A DNA stretch of 64,000 nucleotides. It comes from an uncultured bacterium. Lineage in GTDB: Bacteria; Verrucomicrobiota; Kiritimatiellia; RFP12; UBA1067. Location: the NCBI GenBank assembly GCA_902764415.1, contig CACWVU010000003.1, forward strand, positions 3,857-67,856. The letters are read 5' to 3'. Within the stretch, counting starts at the first letter, position 1; each line of letters starts with the position of its first letter. The notes under the pieces are model-generated. The model was not told where the DNA came from. It did not search any database and saw only the letters and a list, made by a program, of their open reading frames with translations. Below are positions 1,412 through 61,995 of the stretch, in pieces. Both the position numbers and the translations under genes were made by a program.

Positions 1412-1450
1412 TACTGCGGATTATGTGGATGTGCTGACAGTATAGTGAAT

Positions 1451-1797
1451 GAAACTCCGATCCGTATGGCTCTCGCTACCGCTCCGCAGAATATGTTTTG
1501 CTTCGCGCATAGCATTCGTTTTCCACGGCCACTCTTGCCTTGTTTTATATCTGCGGCTTCGCCGCAGTGGGCTCTTATGGGGGTCTGGGGGCTGCGCCCC
1601 CAGTTAAAAAAACCTTTGCGTTCTTTGTGTTCTTTGCGGCTGACAAAACCTGCCGTGGATCTGAATTGGGGTTGCGAGATGCGAAGCTGTGGAGCGGGAA
1701 TGCGCCCGCGCCGAAGGCGTCGGGTTGGCCGAGGGCGAAGCCCAAGCCGCGAAGCGGCCGCAAGGGCACGCGCGAGAACCCCAACCATCGGAGTTTT
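1451..1797. repeat. structured nested-palindrome repeat element, copy A (carries a 72-nt extra segment ~1698-1771)
   Basis: The termini are inverted: aaactccgat..ctcgctaccgctcc at the 5' end pairs with ggagcgg..gcgagaacccc..atcggagttt at the 3' end. Internal hairpins are ctgcggc-ttc-gccgcag and ctgggggc-tgc-gcccccag, and a TTCTTTGnG x3 array is present. A ~170-nt core differs from copy B (26971-27245) at only a handful of positions by eye. Confidence 0.85.
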
Positions 1798-1835
1798 AAA
1801 CACTAAAAACACCGAGGAATCGAAGGGTAATCAAA

Positions 1836-4800: not shown

Positions 4801-7418
4801 AAGACGCGACGCGATACTCCAAGATGGCGGACGAGGCGCGGGCGTACCTCAAGGCGAATTTCTTCGAGCAGGACGGGGGGTTGCTAAAGATATTCCGCCA
4901 CCTGCAGACGCCGGCCATCTTCGCGCTGCGGCTGGGGCTCTACGACGGCGCGGCGAAGGACACTGCCGTCGCGGCGCTCCTGAAGAACATCGAAGACCAC
5001 GGCGGATGCCTGCAGACGGGCTTCCTCGGGACGGCGCAGATCCTCGACGCGCTTGCCTACGACGCCAACCGTCCCGACGCCGCGTATTCGCTGCTGCTCC
5101 AGGACAAGGATCCGAGCTGGCTCTTTACGGTGCGCCAGGGCGCCACGACGATGTGGGAGCGCTGGAACAGCTACACGAAGGAGAAGGGGTTCGGTCCCGT
5201 GGACATGAACAGCTTCAACCACTACGCCTACGGATCGTTTGCCGACTGGCTCTTCGGCGCTGCCGCAGGGATCCGCCCCGGTCCCGACGGCGGCTTCGAC
5301 GACCGCTTCGAGCTGGCGCCGCTGCCCGACAGACGGCTTGGAAAAGTTGAGGCGACATACAAGACGAAGAACGGCGTCATCAGGAGCGCGTGGCGCTATT
5401 GCGACGACGGCGCGCTCGTCTGGGAATTCGCCGTGCCGGAGGGTTCCGTCGCGGCGGTGACGTTCAACGGCGAGACGCGCGACTATGCCGCGGGCACTTA
5501 CACGCTTGAGACTGTTCCTCGCCCCCTCCGGCCGCCGGCTGTACCACTCGTGACGTGCGACCCGTTCTTCTCGGTGTGGTCGCCGCACGACCGGCTGACG
5601 GACGGCGAGACGACGCACTGGGCCTCATGGAAAACGCAGCCGCTCAGCATCGTTTTGGATGCGGGGGGGAAGGTGTACCGACTCTGCGGAACCGAGCCCG
5701 CCGATGCTCCGGCGCTTGAACAGGTCGCCTGCGAGGTGCGTCCGCTCACGACGGTCGTGCGGTATGCCGGTGCGGACGGTCTCAGCGCGACGCTCGAGTT
5801 CTTGACCGCGAAGGATCCCGACGACCTAGAGACGTTCTCTCGTCCGGTGACGTACCTCACCGCGTCCGTTGAAGGCGCGAAGACGTGGAAGCTCCGCGTC
5901 TCGTTCGGCGCGAACATCTGCCGCGAGGACGAAAGCGCCGCGGTCGCGACCAACGCGCTGACGGTGGCAGGGCGTCCGGCCGTGCGGCTTGGAAGAGTCG
6001 AGCAGAATCCGCTCGGGAGCTCGGGCGACACGGTGAGATGCGACTGGGGCTATGCCTGGACGGTCGACTGCGGCGACCATTTTATCCTGGCATACGACGA
6101 CGTGAAGTCGATACGTTGGTTCGACCGCGACCTGCCCGCATACTGGCGCAGGCACGGAAAGAGCTTTGAGAAGATGCTGGAGGATGCGGTCGGCGCATAC
6201 GCCGCGGTGCGCAAAGCCGCCCAGGCGAAGGACGCCGCGCTTCTGGCGGCGTTCCGGCGGCGCGGCGGCGAGAAATACGCGCGTCTCTGTGCGCTCGCGT
6301 GGCGGCAGAGCTTCGCCGCGTGCAAGCTCGTGACGGGACCCGGCGGGGAGCTTCTGTACTTTTCGAAGGAGAACGGCTCGAACGGATGCATTGGAACGGT
6401 GGACGTATTCTATCCGCAGCTGCCGCTTCTGCTCTACACCTCGGCCGAACTCACCCGCGCCACGCTGCGCCCGATACTCGAGTACGCCGCGTCGGACAAG
6501 TGGAAATACGACTATGCGCCGCACGACCTCGGGCAGTATCCGCTCGCAACCGGCCAGGTGTACTCGATGGGGACAGACCCCAAGACCGGCAAGCCGTACG
6601 CCGACGCGGACCGGATGCCGGTGGAGGAGTGCGGCAACATGCTCATCGCGCTCGCGGCGCTGGCGCAGAAGGAGGGGAACGCCGGCTTCGCCGAGCAGTG
6701 GTGGCCGACGGTGACGAAGTGGGCGGAATACCTCAAGCGGTTCGGCTTCGATCCCGGGGACCAGCTCTGCACCGACGACTTCGCCGGACACCTCGCGCAC
6801 AACGCCAACCTTTCGCTTAAGTCGATACTCGCCCTCCGTTCGTATGCGATGCTGGTGGAAATGCGCGAGCGGGCCCGCGGCGAGTCGTCTGATGAATCCG
6901 ACCGCCTCAAGCTCGAAGCGCTGATGATGAGCATGCAGTGGGTCAAGGCGGCGAAAGACGGACGTGACGGCGCGACGCGCCTCGCCTTCGACCAGCCGGA
7001 GACGTGGAGCCTCAAGTACAACCTCGTGTGGGACCGCGTGCTTGGGTTCGACCTCTTCCCGGACGAGGTCTTCCGCGGCGAAACCGCCGCGTACATCCGG
7101 TTCGCAAACAAGTTCGGCGTTCCGCTCGACAGCCGCAAGACATACACGAAAGGCGACTGGACGATGTGGTGCGCGGCGATGGCCGACAGTCGCGAGGAAT
7201 TCGACGCGCTCGTGGCGGGCGTATACCGCTTTGCGGACGAAACGCCTTCGCGCGTGCCGCTTTCGGACTGGTACGAGACAGTCGGCGAGGGGAAGATGGT
7301 CGGGTTCCTCGCCCGCAGCGTGGTCGGGGGATTTCTCATGCCGATGCTCACTGCCGCCGCCGAGGACGACGCCCGGCGCGCCAGGCAACCTCATGGCGAA
7401 GGGAGGTGCTCAAGATGA
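1836..7418 (+). CDS. secreted tri-modular glycosidase: GH130-like + GH78 alpha-L-rhamnosidase + DUF4964/DUF5127/DUF4965/DUF1793 'glutaminase-like' module (1,860 aa)
   Basis: N-terminal signal MHKFIKLVTFAAVVAAATAAGAG. GH130-type motifs ~1.9-2.95 kb: DTFNPAA, ILYRAED, SRIGLALSSDG, CEDPRV, DGRYLMLYT. GH78 ~3.08-5.51 kb: ATALGAFELYVND and IPTDCPQRDERMGWCGDTQVF. Third module from ~5.53 kb: LRPPAVPLVTCDPFFSVWSP, DVFYPQLPLLLY, YAPHDLGQYP, MPVEECGNMLI, DDFAGHLAHNANLSLK. It is one ORF with no internal stop. Confidence 0.85.
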   Translation: MHKFIKLVTFAAVVAAATAAGAGDASPSSWAWLGFVREGGAVVAPRPDSRFDCPMRGKSVAWEARDTFNPAAATFGGELAILYRAEDASGEGIGERTSRIGLALSSDGSSFRRLGKPVLFPGKDGAEEWDAPGGCEDPRVCETPDGRYLMLYTMWNRKVPRLGVATSRDLLKWTKHGPAFSGRFRDLATKSASVVCERKGDSLVAAKIGGRYLMYWGEEFVNIATSDDLVNWSPVCDANGELLRVIEPRKGKFDSALTECGPPAVLTQKGILLLYNGKNTAGTDGDARYAAGAYCGGQVLFSVDDPTKVVARLDEPFFVPEAEYEKSGQYPAGTVFLEGLVPFRGKWRLFFGCADSRVGMATLPCDGMENRAAGVVSFADPKSVPPGKFTFISPGTHPSLGIHVSPGTHPSPAGVWNGEEFQKDETCASFSKYVTNAAEVKRVEVFATALGAFELYVNDSLVSVEEDGNRADFLRPGATDVWRRRHFLSYDVTRLWRRGKGEWNDVSAFVARSWFSDAAGGRKDAKPALAAKVKLVFCDGSSAIVETDPSWAANFSAPFERAGIYFGEVCDAHGQYSATHCAGSIFSGVNTNFTGVVTAMEGPGVSLRRDLALDPKEAYVYSDADVSGATSNAFGTVCGRKVRLRVGESVLLKPGERLVVDFGQNAAAVPEIVARSYMGFVLSFRGGEMLNDLNGEKSRGNDGPGGSVYRANLRKLAADGAMAKYVFASDDAEPAGICVARYMPSFTFFGYRYAEISATGPVEILSVRSIPVTSIAKSMERGTITTGNADVNRLVENARWGMYSNYLSIPTDCPQRDERMGWCGDTQVFAPAAFRFADAYGFLSKWMTDMRDAQAAGEDGLYPAVAPMMSWGAVMWGRLGWADAGVAVPWTAWRMTGDTRIVEENWDSMSRYVDRIALTQHRTTDGFQWGDWVSYEQITPTGSWPADHQWDGRYLLPEAQKYFDYLGGCQWLMDARRMADMAKATGRGEDATRYSKMADEARAYLKANFFEQDGGLLKIFRHLQTPAIFALRLGLYDGAAKDTAVAALLKNIEDHGGCLQTGFLGTAQILDALAYDANRPDAAYSLLLQDKDPSWLFTVRQGATTMWERWNSYTKEKGFGPVDMNSFNHYAYGSFADWLFGAAAGIRPGPDGGFDDRFELAPLPDRRLGKVEATYKTKNGVIRSAWRYCDDGALVWEFAVPEGSVAAVTFNGETRDYAAGTYTLETVPRPLRPPAVPLVTCDPFFSVWSPHDRLTDGETTHWASWKTQPLSIVLDAGGKVYRLCGTEPADAPALEQVACEVRPLTTVVRYAGADGLSATLEFLTAKDPDDLETFSRPVTYLTASVEGAKTWKLRVSFGANICREDESAAVATNALTVAGRPAVRLGRVEQNPLGSSGDTVRCDWGYAWTVDCGDHFILAYDDVKSIRWFDRDLPAYWRRHGKSFEKMLEDAVGAYAAVRKAAQAKDAALLAAFRRRGGEKYARLCALAWRQSFAACKLVTGPGGELLYFSKENGSNGCIGTVDVFYPQLPLLLYTSAELTRATLRPILEYAASDKWKYDYAPHDLGQYPLATGQVYSMGTDPKTGKPYADADRMPVEECGNMLIALAALAQKEGNAGFAEQWWPTVTKWAEYLKRFGFDPGDQLCTDDFAGHLAHNANLSLKSILALRSYAMLVEMRERARGESSDESDRLKLEALMMSMQWVKAAKDGRDGATRLAFDQPETWSLKYNLVWDRVLGFDLFPDEVFRGETAAYIRFANKFGVPLDSRKTYTKGDWTMWCAAMADSREEFDALVAGVYRFADETPSRVPLSDWYETVGEGKMVGFLARSVVGGFLMPMLTAAAEDDARRARQPHGEGRCSR
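3010..3072 (+). repeat. degenerate 18-nt tandem repeat (~3.5 units) forming the GH130/GH78 linker
   Basis: tttcacccggcactcacc / cttcactcggcattcatg / tttcacccggcactcacc / cttcaccag. An exact 24-nt direct repeat lies at 3010-3033 and 3046-3069. It translates as SPGTHP-SLGIHV-SPGTHP-SPA. Confidence 0.8.
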
Positions 7419-8569
7419 AGAAGCGCGAGATACTCCTTCTTTCTCCTTCAGCACAGAGAGACCTCACCGACATATTGTCGGGGATTGTGCCGGCTGTCGA
7501 GCGGAATGGCTGGAGCGTCCATGTGGTTGGCGACATCCATTCCCGAAAGAGACTTCTTGCTCTCCTTAAGTTCTGGTCGCCGGACGGCTGCATCGTCCAC
7601 AGTGGACTCAACGACGGAGGAATAGTCCCTGAGGATTTTGGAAGAATTCCCGTCGTGTGGATAGATCGCGATCCGGCGACGCTGCCGCCTTCGGCGCTGT
7701 GTGTCATTCAGGATTCGCGTCCCGCCGGAACACTTGCCGCCAAGGAACTCCTTAGATTCAACCTTGAGTTGTATGCGTTTGTCGACCGGGCGAACCCGCA
7801 GTTTTGGTCCGAGGACCGCCGCAAAGCTTTCCGCGAGGCCGTCGAACTTAACGGGAAAGACTATCGGGAATATACAGAGCCCAGCAAATCGAAGTGGCGC
7901 CGCGGCCTAAAGAAGTTTCTTCTTTCGCTTCCCAGGCCCTGCGGGGTGTTCTGCACAAACGACTCGGTTGCCGTTGAAGTGATGTCGCAGGCGTCAAAAC
8001 TCGGCATAGAGATGCCTGACGAGATGCTGGTTGTTGGAGTTGATGACGTAGATGCGTTTTGCGAGGCCGTTTCGCCGACGCTGACGAGCGTGCACCCCTC
8101 CTTTGCGGCGGCAGGACTTGCTGCTGCGGAGCTTCTCGCGAGAAGCATTGCTAATCCGAAGCTCAAGGGTGTGATCAAGACTTTCGTGGCGCATGAGATA
8201 ACGCGGCGGCAGTCCACGCGCCACATCACTACGAATGGCGGCAACATCGGCCTTGCGCTCGAGATGATCCGAAGGAGGGCGGCGGAGGGCGTTGCCGTCG
8301 ACGAGGTGGTGTCGCTCATGGGGTGTTCTCGGCGTGCCGCAGAACTCCGCTTCAGGCAGTATCTGCACAGCACCATTCTCGACGAGATACATGCTGCGCG
8401 CATCGAACTTGCGAAGAGAATCATATTGAGTGGCAAGTTCAAGATCGGCGGGCTGCACCTTCGCTGCGGCTTCGACTCGCCCGCGACCTTCCGCCGCGTG
8501 TTCAAGTCGGTCACGGGGCTTTCACCGCAGGCATACCTGCAAAAACACCAAGAGGTAACGACAACATGA
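7415..8569 (+). CDS. AraC-family transcriptional regulator with N-terminal LacI/periplasmic-binding-protein-like sugar-binding domain (XylR-type hybrid)
   Basis: ATG 7415 overlaps the upstream TGA (ATGA, 7415-7418) and is preceded by gggagg at 7401-7406. The C-terminal AraC HTH reads VDEVVSLMGCSRRAAELRFRQYL...LHLRCGFDSPATFRRVFKSVTGLSPQAY. The N-terminal part has an alternating beta-alpha PBP-like pattern (VFCTNDSVAVEVM, VVGVDD). The longer ORF start at 7004 lies inside the upstream gene. Confidence 0.82.
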   Translation: MKKREILLLSPSAQRDLTDILSGIVPAVERNGWSVHVVGDIHSRKRLLALLKFWSPDGCIVHSGLNDGGIVPEDFGRIPVVWIDRDPATLPPSALCVIQDSRPAGTLAAKELLRFNLELYAFVDRANPQFWSEDRRKAFREAVELNGKDYREYTEPSKSKWRRGLKKFLLSLPRPCGVFCTNDSVAVEVMSQASKLGIEMPDEMLVVGVDDVDAFCEAVSPTLTSVHPSFAAAGLAAAELLARSIANPKLKGVIKTFVAHEITRRQSTRHITTNGGNIGLALEMIRRRAAEGVAVDEVVSLMGCSRRAAELRFRQYLHSTILDEIHAARIELAKRIILSGKFKIGGLHLRCGFDSPATFRRVFKSVTGLSPQAYLQKHQEVTTT

Positions 8570-10740
8570 AAAACAGAAACAGAATCGCGCCTTTCCTGTG
8601 CGCCGCCTGGGGATCACTGGCGCTCTGCGCCTCGGCCGCGGAGGCGGTGGGATACTGCGCCTACGTCGACCCGTTCATCGGAACCGCCGGCACGGGCCAT
8701 ACATTTCCCTCCGCCTGCGTTCCCTTCGGCCTCGTCCAGGCCGGGCCCGACACGGGCAACGGAGACTGGGCGCACTGCTCCGGCTACAGCTACGAAGACA
8801 AGTCCATCTTCGGCTTCTCGCAGACCCATCTCAACGGCACTGGCTGTCCCGATCTCGGCGACGTGAGGATCCTTCCCTTTGCGGCGGAGTCCGTTCCCGG
8901 GTCGGTGGCCTACGACAAGGCGAGCGAGCGCGCGAAGCCCGGCTTCTACGCCGTCACGCTTGCCGGCGGCGTCAGGGTCGAGGCCTCCGCGACCGAGCGC
9001 TGCGCCATCTACCGCATTTCCTATCCGAAGGGCGCGAAGGGCCGTCTTCTCGTCGACCCCCACTGGTGCATAACGAGGCGCCAGCCCGCCTCCGACTGCA
9101 TCCGCTCCGTCGACGTCGCGCCTGACGGCAGGGCCGGCGTCTCGGGCAAGGTCGCCGTCAACAACTGGGTCGAGCGCACCTACGCCTTCAAGATGGAGTT
9201 CTCCCGGCCGTTCTTGTCGGAGAAGGATCTCGTCTTCGACTTCGGCGAGTCGTCGGGCGAACCGCTCGTGGTGAAGGTCGCGCTCTCCGCGCTGGGCGGC
9301 GTTTCCGACGCCGCGCGCAACCTCGCCGCGGAGATACCCGGCTGGGATTTCGACCGCGTCGCAGCTGCCGCGGACGCGAAGTGGTCGAAGATGCTCTCCT
9401 GCGTGGCGGTCGAGGGCAGCGACGACCAGAAGCGCAACTTCTACACCTCCCTCTACCACCTCTTCATCCAGCCGAACAACATTGCCGATGCCGGCCACAA
9501 GCCCTTCTACTCCACGCTTTCCACCTGGGACACCTTCCGCGCGGCGCATCCGCTCTACACGATCCTCGTTCCCGAGAAGGCGGCGGAATTCGTCGACTCG
9601 ATGCTGGAGCAGGGCCGTCGCACGGGGTATCTTCCGATCTGGACCTTGTGGGGTCGGGACAACCAGTGCATGATCGGCACACATTCCATTCCCGTCATCG
9701 TCGATTGGTTCTTGAAGGATTACTTTAGCCGCAAAGAACGCAAAGAGCACAAAGACTTTGCGGATTCTGCGTCCTTTGCGGCTAAAAAACAATACTGGCT
9801 TGCCGCGTATGAGCAGATCAAGGAGACGCTCACGAAGCGGCACGAGGGGCGCTACAAGGAGCGCTGGGATCTTCTCGACCGGCACGGATACTATCCGTAC
9901 GACGTGATCAGGAACGAATCGGTCTCGCGCACGCTTGAATGCGCCTACGACGACTGGTGCGCGGCGCAGATGGCCGCGAAGCTCGGACACGAGGAGGACG
10001 CGGAGTTCTTCCGCCGCCGGTCGGAGAACTGGCGGAACGTCTTCGATCCGTCGCTCGGACTCATGCGCAGCAAGGACTCGAAAGGCAACTGGCGCGATCC
10101 GTTCGATCCTTCCGCAGTCGGCTACGGCGAAGGCTACGACTTCACCGAGGGGAACTCGTACCAGTACACCTGGCACGTCATGCAGAACCCCGACGGCCTC
10201 GTAGCGGCGATGGGCGGACGCGAGGCGTTCGTGAAGCGGCTTGACTGGCTTTTCGAGCGGCCCGAGGTGGTGAAGGGCGAGGTTTTCGACGTCACGGGGC
10301 TCATCGGGCAGTACGTCCACGGCAACGAGCCGAGCCACCACGTCATCTACTTCTACACGCTTGTCGGCGAGCGCGACAAGGCCGCGCGCAGGGTCCGCGA
10401 CGTGTTCGACAGGTTCTACCTCCCAAAGCCGGACGGGCTCTGCGGCAACGACGACTGCGGACAGATGAGCGCCTGGTACGTCTTTTCGGCGCTCGGGTTC
10501 TATCCGTTCAACCCCTGCGGCGGCACGTACGTCCTCGGCGCGCCGCAGATTCCGAAGGCGACGATAGAGCTTGCGGGCTGCAAGACCCTGACCGTCGTCG
10601 CCAACAACCTCTCCGTCGAGAACAGGTACGTGAAGTCGGTCACGTTCAACGGCAAGCCGCTCGACAAGACGATCGAGCACGCCGACCTCATGTCCGGCGG
10701 CGAGCTCGTCTTTGAAATGACGAACGCCGCGCGAAGATGA
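8566..10740 (+). CDS. GH92 family alpha-mannosidase (secreted), carrying an in-frame palindromic insert
   Basis: ATG 8566 overlaps the upstream TGA (ATGA). Signal MKNRNRIAPFLCAAWGSLALCASAAEA. GH92 hallmarks are YVDPFIGTAGTGHTFPSACVPFGLVQAGPDT, GYLPIWTLWG, GNEPSHHVIYFY and GLCGNDDCGQMSAWYVFSALGFYP. Confidence 0.92.
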   Translation: MKNRNRIAPFLCAAWGSLALCASAAEAVGYCAYVDPFIGTAGTGHTFPSACVPFGLVQAGPDTGNGDWAHCSGYSYEDKSIFGFSQTHLNGTGCPDLGDVRILPFAAESVPGSVAYDKASERAKPGFYAVTLAGGVRVEASATERCAIYRISYPKGAKGRLLVDPHWCITRRQPASDCIRSVDVAPDGRAGVSGKVAVNNWVERTYAFKMEFSRPFLSEKDLVFDFGESSGEPLVVKVALSALGGVSDAARNLAAEIPGWDFDRVAAAADAKWSKMLSCVAVEGSDDQKRNFYTSLYHLFIQPNNIADAGHKPFYSTLSTWDTFRAAHPLYTILVPEKAAEFVDSMLEQGRRTGYLPIWTLWGRDNQCMIGTHSIPVIVDWFLKDYFSRKERKEHKDFADSASFAAKKQYWLAAYEQIKETLTKRHEGRYKERWDLLDRHGYYPYDVIRNESVSRTLECAYDDWCAAQMAAKLGHEEDAEFFRRRSENWRNVFDPSLGLMRSKDSKGNWRDPFDPSAVGYGEGYDFTEGNSYQYTWHVMQNPDGLVAAMGGREAFVKRLDWLFERPEVVKGEVFDVTGLIGQYVHGNEPSHHVIYFYTLVGERDKAARRVRDVFDRFYLPKPDGLCGNDDCGQMSAWYVFSALGFYPFNPCGGTYVLGAPQIPKATIELAGCKTLTVVANNLSVENRYVKSVTFNGKPLDKTIEHADLMSGGELVFEMTNAARR
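9724..9786 (+). repeat. 63-nt palindromic mini-element inserted in frame in the GH92 CDS
   Basis: A perfect 13-bp inverted repeat: tttagccgcaaag (9724-9736) and ctttgcggctaaa (9774-9786). The interior gccgcaaagaacgcaaagagcacaaag matches the reverse complement of the TTCTTTGnG module of elements A/B at 24 of 27 nt. It starts on a codon boundary, spans 21 codons, and translates FSRKERKEHKDFADSASFAAK. Confidence 0.8.
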
Positions 10741-10755
10741 CGGCGAAGGCATGAG

Positions 10756-11799
10756 ATGAAGCGTCTGCGGGGATTTGACTACAAGCGGCCATTCTTCTAC
10801 ATGGTGACGCTGAAGCGGCTGCCGGGGCTGGCCGCCTTCTCGCAGATTTCGGACGAGGCGCCGCCGCCGGGATGGTGCCGGACGGGCCCGGCGCCGCAAA
10901 ACGCGCACGGGCGGCCGCGTTACCTTGTCGAGAACGAGATTACCAAGGCGTTTGCGCGGGTGATCCGCGAATTCGCCGCGAAGTGGTGGGGGCTGTGGCC
11001 GATAGACTGCTTTGTGATCATGCCAGATCACATTCACTTGCTCATTCGCATCAAGGATACCGGCGATCAGATGCCGCTCGGGAGCTATGTCTACCAGCTG
11101 ATGAAGGCGCTGGCAGGGGAGTATTGGCGCCTGACGGGGCAGGCGCCGCAAAACGCGGTGCAGAGGACGGGGGCCGGCGCCGCAAAACGGCTCGAACAGG
11201 GCAAGAGTGTTGCAGGGGCGGCCTCGTCCGCCCCGCCCGCCCCTGTCTTCGAGCGAGCCTGGCATGACTGGATCGTGAAGAAGGATGGCCAGCTCGCGGC
11301 CTTTACGCGCTATATTCGCGAGAACCCGGAGCGGGCTTGGCTCCGCCGCGCCAATCGCCGATATTTTGGCAAGGTGCACAAGGTCTCTTTCCTTGGCCGC
11401 GAGTGGTTCGCGTATGGCAACCTTGCGATTCTCGATCTGCCGGTGCTTGTGGCGGTGAAGGGGCACCGCGCAACGAAGCCGGGCACGCCGGAGTGGAATG
11501 CGCTTGTGGATTCTTGCGCGCGCATCGGGCCGGGCGGCGCAGGCGTGGGAACATTCATGAGCCCGCTGGAAAAGGAATGCGGCAACGCCATCGCCAAGGC
11601 GGGTGGGAAGTGGGTTGTGCTTTCGCCCGAGGGCTTCCACGAGCGGTGGCATCCGCCGCGCGAGAAGGAGCGCTTCTGCGCCGAAGGGCGCATGCTCTTC
11701 CTCTCGCTCTGGCCGCCGATGGAACGGCGGCCGCAAAACGCGGAACTTTACCAGCGCTGCCATGAGATGGGGGACGTCGTGGCAGCGGGGCTGGGGTAG
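10756..11799 (+). CDS. RAYT-like HUH tyrosine transposase homologue (IS200/IS605 TnpA superfamily, COG1943-type) with ~155-aa C-terminal extension
   Basis: HUH motif in FVIMPDHIHLLIRI. Catalytic-Tyr helix AWHDWIVKKDGQLAAFTRYIRENPERAWL. The N-terminal GFDYKRPFFYMVT is typical of the family. The C-terminal half (from ~FLGREWFAYGNL) is of unrecognised family. Confidence 0.7.
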   Translation: MKRLRGFDYKRPFFYMVTLKRLPGLAAFSQISDEAPPPGWCRTGPAPQNAHGRPRYLVENEITKAFARVIREFAAKWWGLWPIDCFVIMPDHIHLLIRIKDTGDQMPLGSYVYQLMKALAGEYWRLTGQAPQNAVQRTGAGAAKRLEQGKSVAGAASSAPPAPVFERAWHDWIVKKDGQLAAFTRYIRENPERAWLRRANRRYFGKVHKVSFLGREWFAYGNLAILDLPVLVAVKGHRATKPGTPEWNALVDSCARIGPGGAGVGTFMSPLEKECGNAIAKAGGKWVVLSPEGFHERWHPPREKERFCAEGRMLFLSLWPPMERRPQNAELYQRCHEMGDVVAAGLG

Positions 11800-22522: not shown

Positions 22523-22608
22523 GAAGGGACGGAAGGGACAAAAGGGACAGAAGGGACAAACATGACCAGCCAGTCGCTTAAGTCGCTTTTGTCGCTCTCG
22601 TCCCTTGA
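22522..22608. repeat. hairpin built from two phased 9-mer arrays (4 x nnAAGGGAC / 4 x GTCsCTnnn)
   Basis: The left array is cgaagggac ggaagggac aaaagggac agaagggac (22522-22557). A 15-nt loop follows. The right array is gtcgcttaa gtcgctttt gtcgctctc gtcccttga (22573-22608). The arms are imperfect reverse complements, with a recurrent central mismatch per unit. Confidence 0.8.
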
Positions 22609-22687
22609 ATGGGGCTCAAATGGGACCAAAGGGACAAACATGACCAGCCAGTCGCTTAAGTCGCTTTTGTCGCTCTCGTCCCTTGAA
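22551..22687. repeat. two exact 59-nt direct repeats (22551-22609 and 22629-22687, period 78 nt)
   Basis: aagggacaaacatgaccagccagtcgcttaagtcgcttttgtcgctctcgtcccttgaa occurs twice, identical by eye. The second copy ends 10 nt before ATG 22698. Confidence 0.85.
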
Positions 22688-22697
22688 GAGGTCCCCA

Positions 22698-23384
22698 ATG
22701 GCTGAAGTTCCGAAGATCGTTTTGCCGCATGGCGGCTACCGCAACCTCATCGTCTACCGCAAGAGCGACGTGATCTACCAGGGCACCGTCGCATTCTGCC
22801 GCCGCTTTCTGCCGGCGCGCGGCGACCGCACGGTCGACCAGATGACGCAGGCCGCGCGCTCCTGCAAGCAGAACATCGCCGAAGGGTCGGCGGCGAGCGG
22901 CACCTCGAAGGAGACGGAGATTAAGCTGACCAACGTCGCCCGGGCGACGCTTGACGAACTCCTCGAAGACTATCTCGACTACCTGAAGTCACATGGCGCC
23001 GGGGAATGGCCGGCCGCCAGCGAGAAGAAGGCGGCGGCGCGCGACTTCGCGAAGAGCCACGCCGACTGGGACGACTGGAAGCCGTTCTTCGAGTCGCGCT
23101 CGGCGGAGACGCTCTGCAATCTGATGATCGTCGTCATCCAGCAGACGAAATACCTGCTCGACAAGATGATTGCCGCGCAGGAAGAGGACTTCAAGCTGCA
23201 TGGCGGCGTCCGCGAGCGGATGCACGCGGCGCGAACCGCCGCGCGCGGCGAAGACTGGGACGGGGCGATCTATTCGCGGCTTGACGGCGCGGCGTCCGCC
23301 GAAGAGCTCGCCGCTCGCGCCGCCGAGATGCGCGAGCGCATATCCAAGGCAGTCTGGGGCATAAAGCAGCGGAAGGGCTGGTAG
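22698..23384 (+). CDS. four-helix-bundle protein ('23S rRNA intervening-sequence protein' family) with C-terminal suffix domain
   Basis: YRNLIVYRKSDVIYQGTVAFCRRF...QMTQAARSCKQNIAEGSAASGTSKETEIKLTNVARATLDELLEDYLDYL is the typical core of this family. ATG 22698 is preferred over the TTG at 22683, which lies inside the repeat. Confidence 0.8.
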   Translation: MAEVPKIVLPHGGYRNLIVYRKSDVIYQGTVAFCRRFLPARGDRTVDQMTQAARSCKQNIAEGSAASGTSKETEIKLTNVARATLDELLEDYLDYLKSHGAGEWPAASEKKAAARDFAKSHADWDDWKPFFESRSAETLCNLMIVVIQQTKYLLDKMIAAQEEDFKLHGGVRERMHAARTAARGEDWDGAIYSRLDGAASAEELAARAAEMRERISKAVWGIKQRKGW

Positions 23385-23386
23385 GC

Positions 23387-23558
23387 CAAAGGGACGGAAG
23401 GGACAGAAGGGACGAAAGGGACGGGCCAGGGCTTGGCGGTGCCTGGGCCGGGCTGCCCAGGGCTTGCGGGCCAGGGCCGGGCTGGCCAAGGCTTTGCAGG
23501 GCCGGGCTTGGCGGGCTTGGCGGTCGCTTAGGTCCCTTCTGTCGCTTTTGTCCCTTTT
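23387..23558. repeat. long hairpin: 4 x nnAAGGGAC array + ~100-nt GC-rich degenerate repeat loop + 4 x GTCsCTTnn array
   Basis: The left array is caaagggac ggaagggac agaagggac gaaagggac (23387-23422). The middle is made of gggcc(a/g)gggct(t/g)gc-type units. The right array is gtcgcttag gtcccttct gtcgctttt gtccctttt (23523-23558). It begins 2 nt after stop TAG 23382-23384. Confidence 0.8.
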
Positions 23559-23650: not shown

Positions 23651-26600
23651 ATGAAGATCAACTATCGCTTTTTCGCCTTGGCTTGCGCTGCCGCCTGCTG
23701 TCCGCTTGCGGGCTTTGCCGCGGCTGCGGCGGCCACGTTTTCGTTTGGCGAGGTCAAGGTCGACTGCGAGGAGCGCGACGGCTGGAAGCTTGCGTTTTCC
23801 CGCGAAGTCGCGCCTGATGGCGCGGAGATCGCGAAGATCGCGCTCGACTGCGCGGAGGCGAAGACGCCGCCGAAGACGCGGCTGTCGCTCGCCGTCCCGC
23901 AGGTCGGCATGGACTACGCCTGGAACGTCAACACTGGCGACTGCGGCATGCGCCCGAACTGGGGCGCGAACTCGAGCACCGAGGTCGCGCAGGGGATGCC
24001 GGTCTTCGTCTACTTCGACGGCAACGACACGAGCCATTTCTCCGTCGCGGCCGAGGAGTGCGTGCACCACCTCAACTACAAGGGCGGCGTCCGCGAGGAG
24101 GGGAGCCTCCTCGAGATCGGCATCGGCTGGTTCGAGACGCCCGAGGCCCCGATCTCGCACTACGAGACGCGCGTGAGGTTCGACGCGCGCGCGAGGGGAT
24201 TCGCCGACGCGGTGCGCGAGGCCGTCGCGTGGATCGAGCGGACGGCGGGCATCGCGCCGTGCCGCGTTCCCGCGTCCGCGTGCGACCCGCTCTACTCGAG
24301 CTGGTACTGCTTCCACCAGGACGTCCACGCCGCCGACATCGAGGCGGAGCTCGCGATCGCGGCGAAGCTCGGCATGAAGACGTTCATCCTCGACGACGGT
24401 TGGCAAATGGAGGATACGAGCCGCGGTTATGCGTTCTGCGGCGACTGGCAGGTGGCGCCGCGGCTTTTCCCGGACATGGCCGCGCACGTGAAGAGAGTGC
24501 AGGACATGGGGGTAAAGTACATGGTGTGGTACTCCGTCCCGTTCGTCGGGCAGAAGAGCGTGAACTACGAGCGGTTCAAGGGCAAGTACCTCTACGAGAA
24601 CCCCGGCATCGGCGCCGCCGTCCTCGACCCGCGCTTTCCGGAGGTGAGGCAGTTCCTCGTCGATACGTACGTGAAGGCGCTCAAGGACTGGAACATCGAC
24701 GGCTTCAAACTTGACTTTATTGATTCGTTCGCGATCTGGGGAGAGGATCCTGCCGCAAAGGAGAATTACGCAGGGCGCGACATCAAGTCGCTTCCGCTCG
24801 CGGTAGACGCCCTGATGACCGAGGTCAAGAACGCGCTTACGGCGATAAAGCCCGACATTCTCGTCGAGTTCCGCCAGAGCTACGTCGGACCCGCGATCAG
24901 GAAGTACGGCAACATGCTGCGCGTGGGCGACTGCCCCGGCAACCTCCGCCGCAACCGCTTCGCGATCGCGAACCTGCGCCTCGCGTCGGGCGGGACGGCG
25001 GTCCATTCCGACATGCTGGAGTGGAACTTCGCGGACAGCCCCGAGCACGCCGCGCTCTACGTGATCAACTCCATGTTCGGCGTCGTGCAGTATTCGGTCA
25101 TGCTCCGCGACGCGCCGAAGGAGCACCTCGCGATGGTGGAGAAGTGGATCAAGTTCTCGCAGGACCACCGCGACACTCTGCTCAACGGCAAGTTCACGCC
25201 GCGCCATCCCGAGCTCCAGTATCCCGTCATCGAGGCCGAGGGCGACGACGAGGTCGTCATCGGGCTCTACGACGACGGCCGCGTAGTGGACGTTCCCGAG
25301 GGGAAGAGGACGTTCGTGATGAACGCGTCGGGCAAGGACTCCTTCGTCGTCCGCCGCGGCGGAAAGCTCTCCGAAGTCGCCTGCAAGTCGGGCGACTGGA
25401 TCGAGTTCCGCGCGCCGCCGCCGCCCGAGACCGACTGGATGGCCGGCAAGATCGGCGCGTTTGTCCACTACTGGCCGGGCCTCGCCGGGCACGAGGCGAA
25501 GAAGTTCGACGTCGAGCAGCTGAAGCGCGACCTCGTCGCCGCGGGCGTGGACTACTTCTTCCTCACGCTCGGCCAGAACGCGGGGACGTACATCGCGCCC
25601 AACGAAACCTACGATCGCCTCACGGGCCACAAGCGCGGCGAGGCGACGGCGGCCTGCAATGGTCGCGACATTCCGCGTGAAGTCATCGAGGCGCTCAAGG
25701 GCACCGGCATCAAGTTCTGCCTCTACCTTCCCTGCCGCGGCCCCGGGCGCGCGCCGGAGGACTGCGAGAAGCTGGGCTACATCCCTTCGCGCGACGACCA
25801 CTCGGACTGCACCGACACGCCCGAGGGCCTCGAGAACTGGTGCAAGGTCATCGCGGAGTGGAGCGAGCGCTACGGCCGCGACGTCCACGCCTGGTGGTTC
25901 GACGGCGCGGGCGGCCCCGGCTTCGGCGGCGACCGCGAGACGCTGGCGATCCGCGCCGCCGCGCGCCGCGGCAATCCCGACGCGGTCTGCGCCTTTGCGA
26001 AGAAGATCGTCGACTACGACCACGGCTTCCGCTGGGTGCTGGGCATGGACCGCAAGGAGGGCCGCGAGCTCGATACGCTCTTCACCGACTACAACTGCCG
26101 CGGCGAGGCGAGGCACGACGTGTGGGCGGGATGCGACTTCACGGCCGGCGAGGCGACTAACCCGATGCGCCTTCCCTGCGACGGACGCGAGGTGCTTGGC
26201 CGCCAGTGGTTCACGCTCACCTACCTGGGCGGCATGTGGGGATGGACGGACGTCCGCCACACCGACAATGTCTGGTCTGACTGGATGAAGCGCGTCATTC
26301 CGCTCGGCGCGAGCGTCTGCTTCGACGTCGGCTTCGTCCACGAGGACGGCAGGATGTCGCCGGCGCAGGTCGCGCAGCTCAGGCGCATCGTCGCGCTCGC
26401 GCGCGGCAAACCTGACGCGGAGACCGCCGCGCGGCACGAGCGCGAGACGAAGGTCGTCAGCGCGCTCAGGGACGTCGAGCTGGCGTATGGACGCGGATGC
26501 GAGAATCCGCTCTGTCTTGAAGACAGGGACACGGGCGACGCCGAGATCCGCGCCGCGCTCGACAAGGACGGCGCGGTGTTCGTGAACGAGCGCGCGAAGG

Positions 26601-27247
26601 CGACGGTGATCGGAAGCGATCTCGTGCTGAAGCAGGGGCAGGTGTTCATCGGCGACAAGGATTCGAAGTTCGCCGCGCCGGAAGGGAAGCGCGTCACGGT
26701 GAAGCTGGCGGACGGCGTGATGTTCGAGGGCGGCACCTGGAAGGGCGTCGACTTCGACCTCAGGGGCTGCAGGCACTTCATCTTCCGCCGCGTGTGGACG
26801 GAGGACTGCCGCGTGCTCACGGACGGCGCGTCAGAGTGCGTGATAGAATACCTCACATCGCCGAATCCGACACCGAAGCAGGTTTTCGAGATAATCTGCT
26901 CGGGGGAGGAAGCATCACACAGAGTCACAGAGACACAGAGGGCTAGGGGCCTGTGTGCGGCGCTGTGTATGAAACTCCGATCCGTGGGGCTCTCGCTACC
27001 GCTCCGCAGAATGGACTATGCTTCGCATTTGACATTCGTCATTACACGGACACTCTTACCGTGTTTTATATCTGCGGCTTCGCCGCAGGGGGCTCTTATG
27101 GGGGTCTGGGGGCTGCGCCCCCAGTTAAAAAAAACTTTGCGTTCTTTGTGTTCTTTGCGGCTGACAAAACCTGCCGTGGATCTGAATTGGGGTTGCGAGA
27201 TGCGAAGCTGTGGAGCGGTAGCGAGAACCCCAACCATCGGAGTTTAA
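23651..27247 (+). CDS. secreted two-domain glycosidase: clan GH-D (GH27/GH36-like) alpha-galactosidase-type barrel + second GH29-like domain; the last ~110 codons are translated repeat element (true 3' end uncertain)
   Basis: Signal MKINYRFFALACAAACCPLAGFAAA. Clan GH-D motifs are FILDDGWQ, GFKLDFIDSF and NMLRVGDCP. The second domain runs from ~25.43 kb (WMAGKIGAFVHYWPG ... HAWWFDGAGG). The ORF reads through outer IR 26916-26941 and element copy B to TAA 27245-27247. Confidence 0.75.
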   Translation: MKINYRFFALACAAACCPLAGFAAAAAATFSFGEVKVDCEERDGWKLAFSREVAPDGAEIAKIALDCAEAKTPPKTRLSLAVPQVGMDYAWNVNTGDCGMRPNWGANSSTEVAQGMPVFVYFDGNDTSHFSVAAEECVHHLNYKGGVREEGSLLEIGIGWFETPEAPISHYETRVRFDARARGFADAVREAVAWIERTAGIAPCRVPASACDPLYSSWYCFHQDVHAADIEAELAIAAKLGMKTFILDDGWQMEDTSRGYAFCGDWQVAPRLFPDMAAHVKRVQDMGVKYMVWYSVPFVGQKSVNYERFKGKYLYENPGIGAAVLDPRFPEVRQFLVDTYVKALKDWNIDGFKLDFIDSFAIWGEDPAAKENYAGRDIKSLPLAVDALMTEVKNALTAIKPDILVEFRQSYVGPAIRKYGNMLRVGDCPGNLRRNRFAIANLRLASGGTAVHSDMLEWNFADSPEHAALYVINSMFGVVQYSVMLRDAPKEHLAMVEKWIKFSQDHRDTLLNGKFTPRHPELQYPVIEAEGDDEVVIGLYDDGRVVDVPEGKRTFVMNASGKDSFVVRRGGKLSEVACKSGDWIEFRAPPPPETDWMAGKIGAFVHYWPGLAGHEAKKFDVEQLKRDLVAAGVDYFFLTLGQNAGTYIAPNETYDRLTGHKRGEATAACNGRDIPREVIEALKGTGIKFCLYLPCRGPGRAPEDCEKLGYIPSRDDHSDCTDTPEGLENWCKVIAEWSERYGRDVHAWWFDGAGGPGFGGDRETLAIRAAARRGNPDAVCAFAKKIVDYDHGFRWVLGMDRKEGRELDTLFTDYNCRGEARHDVWAGCDFTAGEATNPMRLPCDGREVLGRQWFTLTYLGGMWGWTDVRHTDNVWSDWMKRVIPLGASVCFDVGFVHEDGRMSPAQVAQLRRIVALARGKPDAETAARHERETKVVSALRDVELAYGRGCENPLCLEDRDTGDAEIRAALDKDGAVFVNERAKATVIGSDLVLKQGQVFIGDKDSKFAAPEGKRVTVKLADGVMFEGGTWKGVDFDLRGCRHFIFRRVWTEDCRVLTDGASECVIEYLTSPNPTPKQVFEIICSGEEASHRVTETQRARGLCAALCMKLRSVGLSLPLRRMDYASHLTFVITRTLLPCFISAASPQGALMGVWGLRPQLKKTLRSLCSLRLTKPAVDLNWGCEMRSCGAVARTPTIGV

Positions 27248-27275
27248 AACCTCTGTGTCTCCGTGCCTCTGTGTG
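26916..27275. repeat. nested-palindrome repeat element copy B (26971-27245) enclosed by an outer 26-nt inverted repeat of CACAGAG-type words
   Basis: The outer arms are cacacagagtcacagagacacagagg (26916-26941) and cctctgtgtctccgtgcctctgtgtg (27250-27275), complementary at 24 of 26 positions. The inner element is collinear with copy A (1451-1797) and lacks its 72-nt segment. Confidence 0.85.
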
Positions 27276-27333
27276 AACAAAATCCGTCAAGGTTTTAAAG
27301 AACTAAACAATCAAACAGAAAGGAAAACAAAAC

Positions 27334-28559: not shown

Positions 28560-29936
28560 ATGAGAAACCTCTGCGGAACGATCCTTGCCGCGGCGATGCT
28601 CGCGGCAGGGATCGGATGCGGTCGGCGCGGCGACGAGGCCAGCTTCGCGACGTTCGACGCCAGGGCGAGGGCGGGCGAGAGCCTTACCGTCGCCTACTTC
28701 GGCTGCTCGCTCATGTGGAGCGCAAACGCCTCCGAGCCGAACGAGACCGGGTTCCGCGGGCTCATGTCGCGCTATCTGGAGAAGCGGTATCCCAAGGCGC
28801 ATTTCCGCTTTGTGGATGCCTCGGTCGGCGGCACGGGCGCGATGCTGGGCGTGTTTCGTCTCGAAAGGGACGTCCTGTCCAGGCAGCCGGATCTCGTGTT
28901 CCTCGACTTCGCGTGCAACGACGGCTGGGACGGCAAGGCGCTGGCGACGACCTGCTGCTACGAGTCAATCGTCCGGCGACTGGTCGGCGACGGCATTCCC
29001 GTGATGCAGATGTTCTTCACCTTCCGGTTCTGGCTCGAGGGGTCGCTTGAGCCGGGAGCCGAGACGGCCGTCCACCAGCGGATAGTGCCGTACCGCCGCC
29101 TTGCGGAGGAGTACGCGACCGGCGTCGGCGACGTGTACCGGGACTCGCCGCTCGTCGCCGACCTGAAAAGCGGCAAGACCACGTTCGACGCCGTGTGGCC
29201 GATCGACGGCGGGCACCCCGCCGACCTCGGCTACCACTACTTCGCGGAAGCCGCCTTTGCCGGCTTCGAGCGGGCGGTCAGGGAGGGAACAGTCTGCCGC
29301 GTTCCGGAAAAGCCGGTGTTCGGGACGGTGGCGGATGTGCAAAGACTTGATTTTAGCCACAACCACCTTCGCCATCCGCCTACGCAAAGACTACGGCGGA
29401 CAAGAGGCTACGGTGGTCAAGAAGAACGCAAAGAACGCAAAGGGATTTGCGGCAATGGATTTGTGGCTGGCGCAAACACAAATTCCTGGCGCAGGGCGCT
29501 TACGTACCGCACTTCGCTTTGGTACGACGGGCTTTCCTCGCGGTGGATGGACGATGTGCTGGCATTCTCCGGCACGAACCGCGCGCCCGTGTCCGTGGAG
29601 GCGGCGGGCAACATGCTGGGCGTGTTCGGCGAGGCGGACGAGAACGCGCTGACGGCGGCGATTCTCTGCGACGGGGAGAAGATCGCGGACTTCAACGCCT
29701 ACCACAACGCCGGCAAGGGGCGGCTCTTCTTCTGGCGGGACGTGCTGCTGAAGGATTATGCGAAAGGGGAGTCCGCGGCGCATAAATGGATCGTCGACCC
29801 CGTCCCCGACGGCAAGGGAGAGTTCCGGATCGGCGCCATCTGCACGGCGACGATCAAGCCGGAGGCGGAATTCGCCGGCGACGCCGGCTCAGATTTCGAC
29901 ATCTCCGCCATCGACCATGCCCGCGGCGTGAAGTAA
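28560..29936 (+). CDS. SGNH/GDSL-family hydrolase (lipoprotein-like signal) + C-terminal beta-rich domain, with in-frame repeat insertion in the linker
   Basis: Signal/lipobox MRNLCGTILAAAMLAAGIGCG. SGNH blocks are VAYFGCSLMWS, DLVFLDFACNDG and WPIDGGHPADLGY. ATG 28560 lies 5 nt after the upstream TGA, with gaagg as SD. Confidence 0.8.
   Translation: MRNLCGTILAAAMLAAGIGCGRRGDEASFATFDARARAGESLTVAYFGCSLMWSANASEPNETGFRGLMSRYLEKRYPKAHFRFVDASVGGTGAMLGVFRLERDVLSRQPDLVFLDFACNDGWDGKALATTCCYESIVRRLVGDGIPVMQMFFTFRFWLEGSLEPGAETAVHQRIVPYRRLAEEYATGVGDVYRDSPLVADLKSGKTTFDAVWPIDGGHPADLGYHYFAEAAFAGFERAVREGTVCRVPEKPVFGTVADVQRLDFSHNHLRHPPTQRLRRTRGYGGQEERKERKGICGNGFVAGANTNSWRRALTYRTSLWYDGLSSRWMDDVLAFSGTNRAPVSVEAAGNMLGVFGEADENALTAAILCDGEKIADFNAYHNAGKGRLFFWRDVLLKDYAKGESAAHKWIVDPVPDGKGEFRIGAICTATIKPEAEFAGDAGSDFDISAIDHARGVK
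29355..29468 (+). repeat. composite palindromic repeat inserted in frame in the SGNH gene linker
   Basis: The inverted repeat agccacaa (29355-29362) / ttgtggct (29461-29468) spans 114 nt, or 38 codons. The interior aagaacgcaaagaacgcaaagg matches the reverse complement of elements A/B at 21 of 22 nt. It is followed by tttgcgg, and ctacggcgg/ctacggtgg is a direct repeat. It translates ..HNHLRHPPTQRLRRTRGYGGQEERKERKGICGNGFVA.. Confidence 0.7.
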
Positions 29937-61926: not shown

Positions 61927-61975
61927 GTTCGTGGTTCGTGGCTCGTGGTTCGTGATTCGCGGGCTGTGGATTGTG
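61927..61975. repeat. seven exactly phased heptamers (consensus GyTCGTG) directly after the giant-gene stop codon
   Basis: gttcgtg gttcgtg gctcgtg gttcgtg attcgcg ggctgtg gattgtg. It starts 2 nt after TAG 61923-61925 and ends 21 nt before ackA ATG 61996. No inverted partner lies nearby. Confidence 0.8.
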
Positions 61976-61995
61976 AAAAAGGGAAAAAGGAGAAA

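What the first reader, a model, noticed from the sequence alone, without database searches (positions are those of the whole stretch)
29355..29468. Second in-frame repeat insertion, in the SGNH hydrolase interdomain linker
An inverted-repeat-bounded 114-nt (38-codon) segment contains aagaacgcaaagaacgcaaagg, which matches the reverse complement of the intergenic element at 21 of 22 nt. It also contains additional direct and inverted sub-repeats. It translates into a low-complexity, basic stretch (..RLRRTRGYGGQEERKERKGICGNG..) between the SGNH domain and the C-terminal domain. Together with the GH92 case, two of the roughly ten non-giant genes in this window carry the same module in the same orientation. 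It is read in the same frame in both, yielding a shared RKERKE / ERKERK-type peptide.
Basis: partly seen in the sequence, partly recalled or inferred. Interest (0 to 1): 0.6.

Follow-up and report, generated by a model that had tools for sequence, protein, structure and literature searches.

The report
Nested hairpin repeats inside SGNH linker
A 114-base stretch inside a gut bacterium's esterase gene is selfish hairpin-repeat DNA stacked three layers deep and translated as a floppy 38-residue linker; closely related strains preserve each smaller version and a version lacking the repeat, which shows how such repeats grow inside proteins.

Summary
Window 29355-29468 is an in-frame, 38-codon, lineage-specific insert in the linker of an SGNH/GDSL hydrolase of a rumen/gut Kiritimatiellia bacterium.

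It has three nested layers. Module A is a hairpin built from 9-nt GCAAAGAAC units with TTTAGCC/GGCT ends, the same family as the GH92 insert and the motif inside two MITE copies. Module B is a 30-nt REP-like hairpin sitting seamlessly in A's left arm. Module B' is a second 30-nt B-type hairpin in B's loop.

Orthologues 90-96% identical outside the linker show no insert, A with 2 units, A with 3 units, A+B, and A+B+B' (the window). Every step is a multiple of 3.

A and B are dispersed. The A word occurs in at least 119 genome stretches from many phyla, B in 108 metagenome stretches, and a 75-nt exact copy of the A/B/B' core lies in another contig.

The AlphaFold2 model places the insert in a disordered interdomain linker. 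The shared reading frame is real but is one of only two stop-free forward frames.

This is tolerated selfish DNA that behaves like Rickettsia palindromic elements and REP elements. How it moves is inferred, not shown.

The parts
28560..29936 (+). Host gene: SGNH/GDSL hydrolase, 458 aa. N-terminal catalytic domain, linker, C-terminal beta-sandwich domain.
   Evidence: ORF. Pfam Lipase_GDSL_2 at residues 60-226, E 1.3e-09. 381 homologues, some labelled Kiritimatiellia SGNH/GDSL hydrolase. AF2 model pTM 0.80, with domains at about residues 40-264 and 310-434.
29355..29468 (+). The whole in-frame composite insert: 114 nt, residues 266-303.
   Evidence: Absent from the orthologue in L003/L004. pLDDT is below 50 at residues 268-304.
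29352..29362 (+). Module A, left terminus TTTAGCCACAA (family terminus TTTAGCCRCAA).
   Evidence: The same terminus is found in the GH92 element, in SGNH alleles L006/L008 and in many genome contigs copies.
29363..29374 (+). Module B (outer 30-nt hairpin), left arm CCACCTTCGCCA.
   Evidence: L005 has B alone at this position. L006 lacks exactly these 30 nt. B is dispersed: 108 metagenome stretches.
29375..29404 (+). Module B' (inner 30-nt B-type hairpin), TCCGCCTACGCAAAGACTACGGCGGACAAG, sitting in the loop of B.
   Evidence: A clean 30-nt gap separates the window from L005. The stem is CCGCC/GGCGG, against CCACC/GGTGG in B. The same B(B') doublet occurs in L166, L201 and L209, and in diverged form in L144 and L207.
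29405..29422 (+). Module B, right arm and tail AGGCTACGGTGGTCAAGA.
29423..29442 (+). Module A, remainder of the left array: two 9-nt units, (AG)AACGCAAAG AACGCAAAG.
   Evidence: L008 has one unit fewer than L006.
29443..29468 (+). Module A, degenerate right arm GGATTTGCGGCAATGGATTTGTGGCT, containing a 14-nt tandem pair and ending in TTGTGGCT.
   Evidence: repeats D4 and I7. Constant in L005, L006, L008 and the window.
9724..9786 (+). Sister copy of module A: a 63-nt near-perfect palindrome in frame in the GH92 gene, read FSRKERKEHKDFADSASFAAK.
   Evidence: pair I12. DNA fold z = -5.16. GH92 confirmed. Orthologues with an empty site or with other cassettes.
1609..1641 (-). Half-array of module A inside a MITE-like element (about 1452-1795).
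   Evidence: pairs I3, I6, I17.
27130..27162 (-). Half-array of module A inside the second MITE-like copy (26967-27250, 43-nt terminal inverted repeats).
   Evidence: pairs I1, I8. This half-array is missing from the orthologous MITE copy in L001/L008.
10756..11799 (+). RAYT-like (Y1 HUH transposase-like) gene. It is a candidate mobilising enzyme only; no link to modules A or B was shown.
   Evidence: NCBIfam REP_Tyr_transpos scores 35.4 bits, below the cut-off of 80. Pfam Y1_Tnp E 0.0044. HIH motif at 11028-11036.

Best explanation
The segment is a three-level nested composite of short, dispersed, hairpin-forming repeat modules. It lodged in frame in a disordered interdomain linker and is tolerated there as selfish or neutral DNA.

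Layer 1 is module A, a hairpin built from tandem 9-nt units (GCAAAGAAC) with TTTAGCC...GGCT(AAA) ends. Layer 2 is module B, a 30-nt REP-like hairpin (CCACC...GGTGG stem, CAAG tail). It sits seamlessly, with no target duplication, between AGCCRCAA and AGAACGC in A's left arm. Layer 3 is B', a second B-type 30-nt hairpin placed seamlessly in B's loop.

Shown:
- The three-layer anatomy.
- An allele lacking the insert, and each intermediate allele, in close relatives.
- The multi-copy, dispersed nature of A, B, A+B and A+B+B'.
- The disordered linker context.

Inferred:
- The insert grew or shrank by slippage of the 9-nt unit.
- It also changed by site-specific, seamless gain or loss of 30-nt hairpins. 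A single-strand (IS200/IS605- or REP/RAYT-like) cut-and-paste process is the most plausible route.
- Selection on the host protein retains only versions that are multiples of 3 and stop-free.

The confidence given applies to what the segment is (the shown parts). The enzymatic route is much less certain; see the first rival.
For: Anatomy and chance:
- Searches give the coordinates; the A word occurs 4 times in the window against 0 expected.

Allele series at one locus:
- No insert: L003/L004, 424 aa.
- A with 2 units: L008, 435 aa.
- A with 3 units: L006, 438 aa.
- A+B: L005, 448 aa.
- A+B+B': the window, 458 aa.
- The steps are 9, 30 and 30 nt, and the locus-specific right arm is unchanged.
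- Window, L005, L006 and the truncated L007 form one clade with branch lengths of 0.02 or less, so turnover is fast relative to point substitution.

Dispersal of A:
- At least 119 stretches carry the 19-nt A word, from Kiritimatiellia, Thermoguttaceae, Verrucomicrobia, Chloroflexota, Acidobacteriota, Desulfobacterota, Bacteroidota and others.
- The two R positions are homogenised: 87 GG, 25 AA, 16 mixed, against about 49 mixed expected (Fisher p = 4e-13).
- The opposite arm covaries: GG goes with C-type partner units, AA with T-type (p = 2e-7).

Dispersal of B:
- 108 metagenome stretches.
- The same A|B junctions occur at other loci (L130, L142, L149, L172/L205, L186).
- B(B') also occurs inside a different hairpin family (L166, L201).
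- L209 shares 75 nt exactly with window 29360-29434 in a different, apparently intergenic, context.
- In four gut metagenomes summed contig word-depth over 29354-29445 peaks at about 2-11 times the flanks (up to 7-11 times in X3, X6 and X11). Other contigs carry 38-48-nt pieces with unrelated flanks.
- A GH92 orthologue (P0165) carries A with B nested, in frame.

Protein context:
- pLDDT is 25-30 across the insert, between two confident domains.
- In-frame A copies lie in bona fide genes elsewhere: CarB, a GT4 glycosyltransferase, an EcoRI-type methylase, HsdS, an AraC-type regulator and a lactonase.
Against: - No enzyme is tied to A or B.
- The RAYT-like gene in the window scores below its family cut-off and is not flanked by A or B.
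- tblastn found no RAYT-like gene near the other copies fetched.
- The composite as a whole does not fold better than shuffles (z = -1.43).
- The alleles lacking the insert nest inside the filled clade with moderate support (87-94), and their flanks also differ. The first arrival of A therefore cannot be read as a clean insertion. Loss, or replacement by recombination, is equally possible.
- Identical composites at other loci could spread by gene conversion rather than transposition.
- The whole-genome census could not be run.
Confidence: 0.78

Rival explanations
1. The anatomy is the same, but the modules spread by homologous recombination or gene conversion between dispersed copies, plus replication slippage. 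No dedicated transposition enzyme is involved.
For: Identical composites (A+B, A+B+B') exist at other loci and could serve as donors. Units within an element are homogenised, as expected from conversion or slippage. No cognate enzyme was found. Both linker hot spots show cassette-like replacement by unrelated repeat families.
Against: At the SGNH locus the left homology available for converting B in is only about 8-12 nt (TTTAGCCRCAA). The locus-specific right arm stays untouched. B also sits, with equally sharp ends, inside an unrelated hairpin family (GTTGCCAA..), where A homology is absent.
Confidence: 0.3
2. The insert is a selected, functional linker. The basic RKERK-rich, variable-length peptide would tune spacing or surface binding of the esterase, and length variation would be adaptive.
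For: The linker site is occupied by some insert in most close relatives. In a sister clade a different 9-nt-unit repeat, read NPVNPVNPV, occupies it. All versions keep the frame.
Against: The same DNA modules occur in apparently non-coding contexts and in unrelated genes, in two different frames, so the conserved entity is the DNA, not a peptide. Orthologues without the insert are intact. The predicted structure is disordered.
Confidence: 0.08
3. The segment arose locally by duplication and slippage within the linker, and its resemblance to other repeats is coincidental.
For: Tandem sub-repeats of 9, 14 and 17 nt are present. One allele step is a simple change in 9-nt unit number.
Against: There is a 75-nt exact match to another contig. 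Module B occurs in 108 other stretches and the A word in at least 119. Depth is raised about 2-11-fold across four runs.
Confidence: 0.02
4. The segment is an assembly artefact: repeat-induced mis-joining created the insert.
For: Contigs in public runs break inside the insert because it is repetitive.
Against: Overlapping contigs from two bovine-gut runs match the window with 0 differences on both sides. Graded alleles come from many independent assemblies (ENA, JGI, NCBI, Logan). The frame is kept in every one.
Confidence: 0.02

Closest known systems
Rickettsia palindromic elements (RPEs; Ogata et al. 2000/2002, as summarised in PMC10969869)
   Same: These are palindromic, dispersed repeats found both between genes and in frame inside unrelated housekeeping genes. 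They are translated as extra peptide segments at positions the fold tolerates.
   Different: RPEs are about 100-150 bp, restricted to Rickettsia, and each family encodes a conserved peptide. Here the modules are 30-63 nt, built of 9-nt units or REP-like hairpins, nested within each other, read in more than one frame, and found in Kiritimatiellia and many other phyla.
REP / REPIN elements with RAYT (TnpA_REP) transposases
   Same: B is a 30-nt imperfect palindrome, multi-copy and found mostly in non-coding contexts, with compensatory stem changes. Its gain or loss is seamless with no target duplication, as expected for HUH single-strand transposition. A RAYT-like gene lies in the same window.
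   Different: The RAYT-like gene is below the family cut-off and is not flanked by A or B. No conserved 5' GTAG arrangement was demonstrated. B sits inside other hairpins and inside genes.
Small dispersed repeats (SDR) of heterocyst-forming cyanobacteria (Elhai et al. 2008, Genome Research; cited from memory, paper not retrievable here)
   Same: These are very small (about 20-30 nt) mobile repeats that insert into other copies or palindromes, giving nested sets, and sometimes land in genes.
   Different: They come from a different phylum and have different sequences. The similarity rests on my recollection and was not tested.
Modular MITE-like repeats such as pneumococcal BOX and intragenic ERIC (PMC10969869)
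   Same: They have a modular build with a variable number of internal units and hairpin potential, and occasionally give in-frame intragenic copies.
   Different: BOX and ERIC modules are longer and are not nested hairpin within hairpin. They have no 9-nt unit arrays.

Membership tests
Rickettsia palindromic elements (RPE) | Palindromic dispersed repeat inserted in frame in protein-coding genes | tested here: met
Rickettsia palindromic elements (RPE) | Belongs to one of the RPE sequence families of Rickettsia (about 100-150 bp, conserved encoded peptide) | tested here: not met
   The host is Kiritimatiellia. Modules are 30-63 nt. The same DNA is read as SRKERK or AAKNAK in different genes. No direct sequence comparison with RPEs was made.
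REP/REPIN-RAYT | Short (20-40 nt) imperfect palindrome, many dispersed copies, mostly extragenic | tested here: met
   B is 30 nt and occurs in 108 metagenome stretches. Most of the contexts inspected look non-coding, though coding status was not classified systematically. Summed contig word-depth is about 2-11 times the flanks. Outside one clonal context, stem pairs are G-C 17, A-T 10, mismatched 5 (Fisher p = 1.4e-4).
REP/REPIN-RAYT | Cognate RAYT gene in the genome, typically flanked by its REPs | tested here: inconclusive
   The gene at window 10756-11799 hits REP_Tyr_transpos at 35.4 bits, below the cut-off of 80. No A or B copy flanks it.
REP/REPIN-RAYT | Conserved GTAG tetranucleotide 5' of the hairpin, recognised by the RAYT | tested here: inconclusive
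   B contains CTAC (GTAG on the other strand), but inside the hairpin next to the stem rather than 5' of it. Its significance is unknown.
MITE (DDE-transposase derived) | Terminal inverted repeats | tested here: met
   A has TTTAGCC...GGCTAAA termini.
MITE (DDE-transposase derived) | Target-site duplication flanking the element | tested here: not met
   Gain or loss of B and B' is seamless, 30 nt exactly, with no duplicated flank. For A the flanks have diverged too far to judge.
MITE (DDE-transposase derived) | Related autonomous IS with the same ends | not tested
Intragenic tandem repeat (VNTR) evolving by slippage | Alleles differ by whole repeat units | tested here: met
   L008 and L006 differ by exactly one AACGCAAAG unit. 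This explains only one of the steps.
Known structured RNA family (Rfam) | Match at gathering score | tested here: not met
   0 matches in the whole window.

The most novel reading that the evidence does not exclude
A and B may belong to an undescribed, cross-phylum class of 'coding-compatible' hairpin elements. Their features would be 9-nt-unit arrays and 30-nt hairpins, all modules a multiple of 3 nt, the core array word free of stop codons in all six frames, and seamless insertion into the arms and loops of one another. A single-strand HUH (RAYT-like) enzyme would drive this. Nesting would then be the normal mode of growth, and disordered protein linkers would be a regular habitat rather than an accident.
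Probability: 0.2. Interest if true: 0.75.

Novelty: new variant of a known kind. Interest (0 to 1): 0.55.

Why it matters
In-frame colonisation of genes by selfish palindromic repeats is best known from Rickettsia. Here it appears in free-living gut Kiritimatiellia, with an unusually complete record. Public metagenomes hold a version of the gene lacking the insert and every intermediate state: two units, three units, one nested hairpin, two nested hairpins.

That makes this locus a natural experiment on three questions:
- how short repeats lengthen protein linkers,
- how fast this happens relative to point mutation,
- which constraints filter the outcome (multiples of three, stop-free frames, disordered sites).

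The 9-nt-unit hairpin word also occurs across many phyla, and its arms covary. This points to a widespread repeat class that I could not find described. Such repeats also break metagenome assemblies and inflate 'hypothetical' low-complexity peptides in annotation.

Tried and rejected
I substituted collection scans and contig depth.
- Rfam: no family matches in the window.
- ORF-spanning census: a crude census of the 136 A copies was confounded by long spurious ORFs in high-GC DNA. I kept only cases whose host ORF has a Pfam domain.
- Candidate enzymes: tblastn with the window's RAYT-like and four-helix-bundle proteins against all 236 fetched loci found only the syntenic orthologues. No enzyme association was seen.
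- Folding: the whole 114-nt composite folds no better than shuffles (z = -1.43), unlike the GH92 palindrome (z = -5.16).
- B stem covariation: not significant over all copies (p = 0.23), because 17 near-clonal copies carry an A.C mismatch. It is significant outside that context.
- Viral contigs: only 11 A hits and 2 B hits, so there is no clear phage vector.
- Monophyly: the tree does not support a single clean insertion, because the alleles lacking the insert nest within the filled ones.
- Earlier notes: a search by sequence found nothing.
- Literature: searches for the cyanobacterial SDR paper and for repeats linked to four-helix-bundle genes found nothing usable.

Full report
**Observation**

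The segment is as described. AGCCACAA (29355-29362) and TTGTGGCT (29461-29468) bound 114 nt. It is in frame in ORF 28560-29936 (458 aa) and reads FSHNHLRHPPTQRLRRTRGYGGQEERKERKGICGNGFVAG.

The 22-mer AAGAACGCAAAGAACGCAAAGG (29422-29443) recurs with up to 3 mismatches at 1613-1634(-), 27134-27155(-) and 9734-9755(+). None was expected in 100 shuffles.

The two minus-strand copies lie inside two copies of a MITE-like element with 43-nt terminal inverted repeats. The plus-strand copy is the left arm of a 63-nt near-perfect palindrome in frame in a GH92 gene.

**Anatomy**

Comparing orthologue DNA resolves the 114 nt into three nested modules:

- Module A: 29355-29362 (AGCCACAA, with TTT just upstream), plus 29423-29442 (two 9-nt units, AACGCAAAG), plus a degenerate right arm at 29443-29468.
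- Module B: 29363-29374 plus 29405-29422. It is a 30-nt hairpin (CCACCTTCGCCA / AGGCTACGGTGGTCAAGA) between AGCCRCAA and AGAACGC.
- Module B': 29375-29404 (TCCGCCTACGCAAAGACTACGGCGGACAAG). It is a second B-type 30-nt hairpin in B's loop. Its stem is CCGCC/GGCGG where B has CCACC/GGTGG.

**Orthologue series**

The protein has 381 homologues, and the named ones are Kiritimatiellia SGNH/GDSL hydrolases. Synteny is conserved: Melibiase-like gene, GFO/IDH/MocA gene, SGNH gene, a small gene, then a giant gene.

Outside the linker the close orthologues are 90-96% identical. At the linker they differ as follows:

| Locus | Length | State at the linker |
|---|---|---|
| L003/L004 | 424 aa | no insert |
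| L008 | 435 aa | A with two units |
| L006 | 438 aa | A with three units |
| L005 | 448 aa | A+B |
| window | 458 aa | A+B+B' |
| L001/L002 | 440 aa | A with another right arm |
| L007 | 429 aa | truncated A |

A sister clade (L009) carries a different 9-nt-unit repeat at the same site (AATCCTGTN x3, read NPVNPVNPV). More distant orthologues have a short linker.

In a tree built without the linker columns, the window, L005, L006 and L007 proteins form one tight clade (support 99/97, branch lengths 0.02 or less). The two alleles lacking the insert nest among filled alleles with only moderate support. Module turnover is therefore fast, and the first arrival of A cannot be reconstructed as one clean event.

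**Dispersal**

The 19-nt A word AGCCRCAAAGAACRCAAAG has at least 119 hits in species-representative genomes. These span Kiritimatiellia, Thermoguttaceae, Verrucomicrobia, Chloroflexota, Acidobacteriota, Desulfobacterota, Bacteroidota and others. Of 128 matches, 37 have at least two complementary units within 200 nt. The variable purine is homogenised within an element, and the partner arm covaries with it. The hairpin is therefore the maintained feature.

Module B has 108 hits in metagenome contigs. In rumen-type contigs it sits in A at the same junctions as in the SGNH gene (L130, L142, L149, L172/L205, L186). It also sits in an unrelated GTTGCCAA-type hairpin upstream of genes. The B(B') doublet recurs in L166, L201 and L209, and in diverged form in L144 and L207.

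L209 shares 75 nt exactly with window 29360-29434 in a different, apparently intergenic, setting.

Contigs of four gut metagenomes laid on the region give summed word-depth peaking at about 2-11 times the flanks over 29354-29445 (up to 7-11 times in X3, X6 and X11). They include pieces with unrelated flanks, and two bovine-gut runs reproduce the window allele exactly.

GH92 orthologues show the same hot-spot behaviour. Some have an empty site, some carry A, some carry A with other right arms, and some carry the NPVNPV family. One (P0165) has A with B nested, in frame.

**Protein context**

AlphaFold2 (pTM 0.80) gives two confident domains. pLDDT is 25-30 across residues 268-304, which coincides with the insert at 266-303.

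**Frame and orientation**

The core A word has no stop codon in any of the six frames. The TTTTAGCC end closes one forward frame with TAG. In-frame A copies in Pfam-verified genes of other genomes use both remaining frames:

- SRKERK: the lactonase in L102. The L029 ORF also uses this frame but has no Pfam hit.
- AAKNAK/ATKNTK: CarB in L113, GT4 in L012, an EcoRI-type methylase in L061, HsdS in L080, and an AraC-type regulator in L082.

The frame shared by GH92 and SGNH is real but not informative.

**Mechanism**

What is shown: presence or absence of exact 9-nt and 30-nt modules at one locus, identical junctions at unrelated loci, the multi-copy status of the modules, and a tolerant disordered site.

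What is inferred: slippage accounts for the unit changes. A seamless, site-specific single-strand process (IS200/IS605- or REP/RAYT-like) accounts for B and B'. Selection on the host protein keeps only stop-free versions that are multiples of 3.

A RAYT-like gene is present at 10756-11799 but scores below its family cut-off and is not linked to A or B. Gene conversion between copies remains a serious alternative.

**Comparison with known elements**

The behaviour matches Rickettsia palindromic elements (PMC10969869) and REP/REPIN elements. The nesting recalls cyanobacterial small dispersed repeats, which I cite from memory only. It is not a member of the RPE families, and membership in a RAYT system is unproven. 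No Rfam family matches.

**Limits**

Depth figures come from assembler contigs of mixed communities and are not copy numbers.

Noticed in passing
window 26915-27276 and ORF 23651-27247; L001, L003, L008: The last ~100 codons of the Melibiase-like gene are encoded by a CACAGAG-type 8/9-nt array plus the MITE-like element, so the ORF simply runs through them. In L003 the MITE lies in the opposite orientation and gives a different C-terminal tail. In L001 and L008 the MITE copy lacks the A half-array.
   Followed up: partly
window 22523-23558: A four-helix-bundle gene (22683-23384; TIGR02436 plus the TIGR04258 suffix domain; '23S rRNA IVS protein' type) is flanked on both sides by hairpins made of 9-nt GGGAC-type arrays. 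It sits at the same place as in L001 and L008. This may be a gene cassette associated with array hairpins.
   Followed up: partly
window 10756-11799: A RAYT-like Y1 HUH gene lies directly downstream of GH92. It contains several in-frame GCCGCAAAACGCG words that resemble the start of module A.
   Followed up: partly
alignment A1, columns ~380-390 (proteins P0012-P0014): Three SGNH orthologues carry a second short in-frame insert (..SAPLRENKCAGL..) inside the C-terminal domain. It has the look of another repeat family.
   Followed up: no
L113 (RUG572, labelled Lentisphaerae), CarB ORF 3-3605(-): The essential carbamoyl-phosphate synthase large subunit carries a full A hairpin in frame (LAAKNAKRAKKEKSAQSQESLCGLCDLCGI). 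About 90 residues later it has a second repeat-derived insert (..GNTGNIGNTGNIGNIGK..).
   Followed up: partly
L080 (Kiritimatiellia MAG), HsdS ORF 6841-7998: A type I restriction specificity subunit carries A plus a CGCGGAG-type hairpin in frame, twice, at the two equivalent linker positions of its duplicated architecture.
   Followed up: no
window 61927-61976 and 63131-63161: Just after the 10,451-aa ORF lie a GTTCGTG heptamer array (4.7 copies) and a CCTAGAAA octamer array. These are further short-unit repeat families in this genome.
   Followed up: no
L147, L161, L167, L200, L213 and others (rumen metagenome contigs): Module B nested in a GTTGCCAAT-type hairpin recurs immediately upstream of a ribosome-binding site and an ATGAAGAAA start codon in many different genes. 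This suggests a portable 5'-region module.
   Followed up: no
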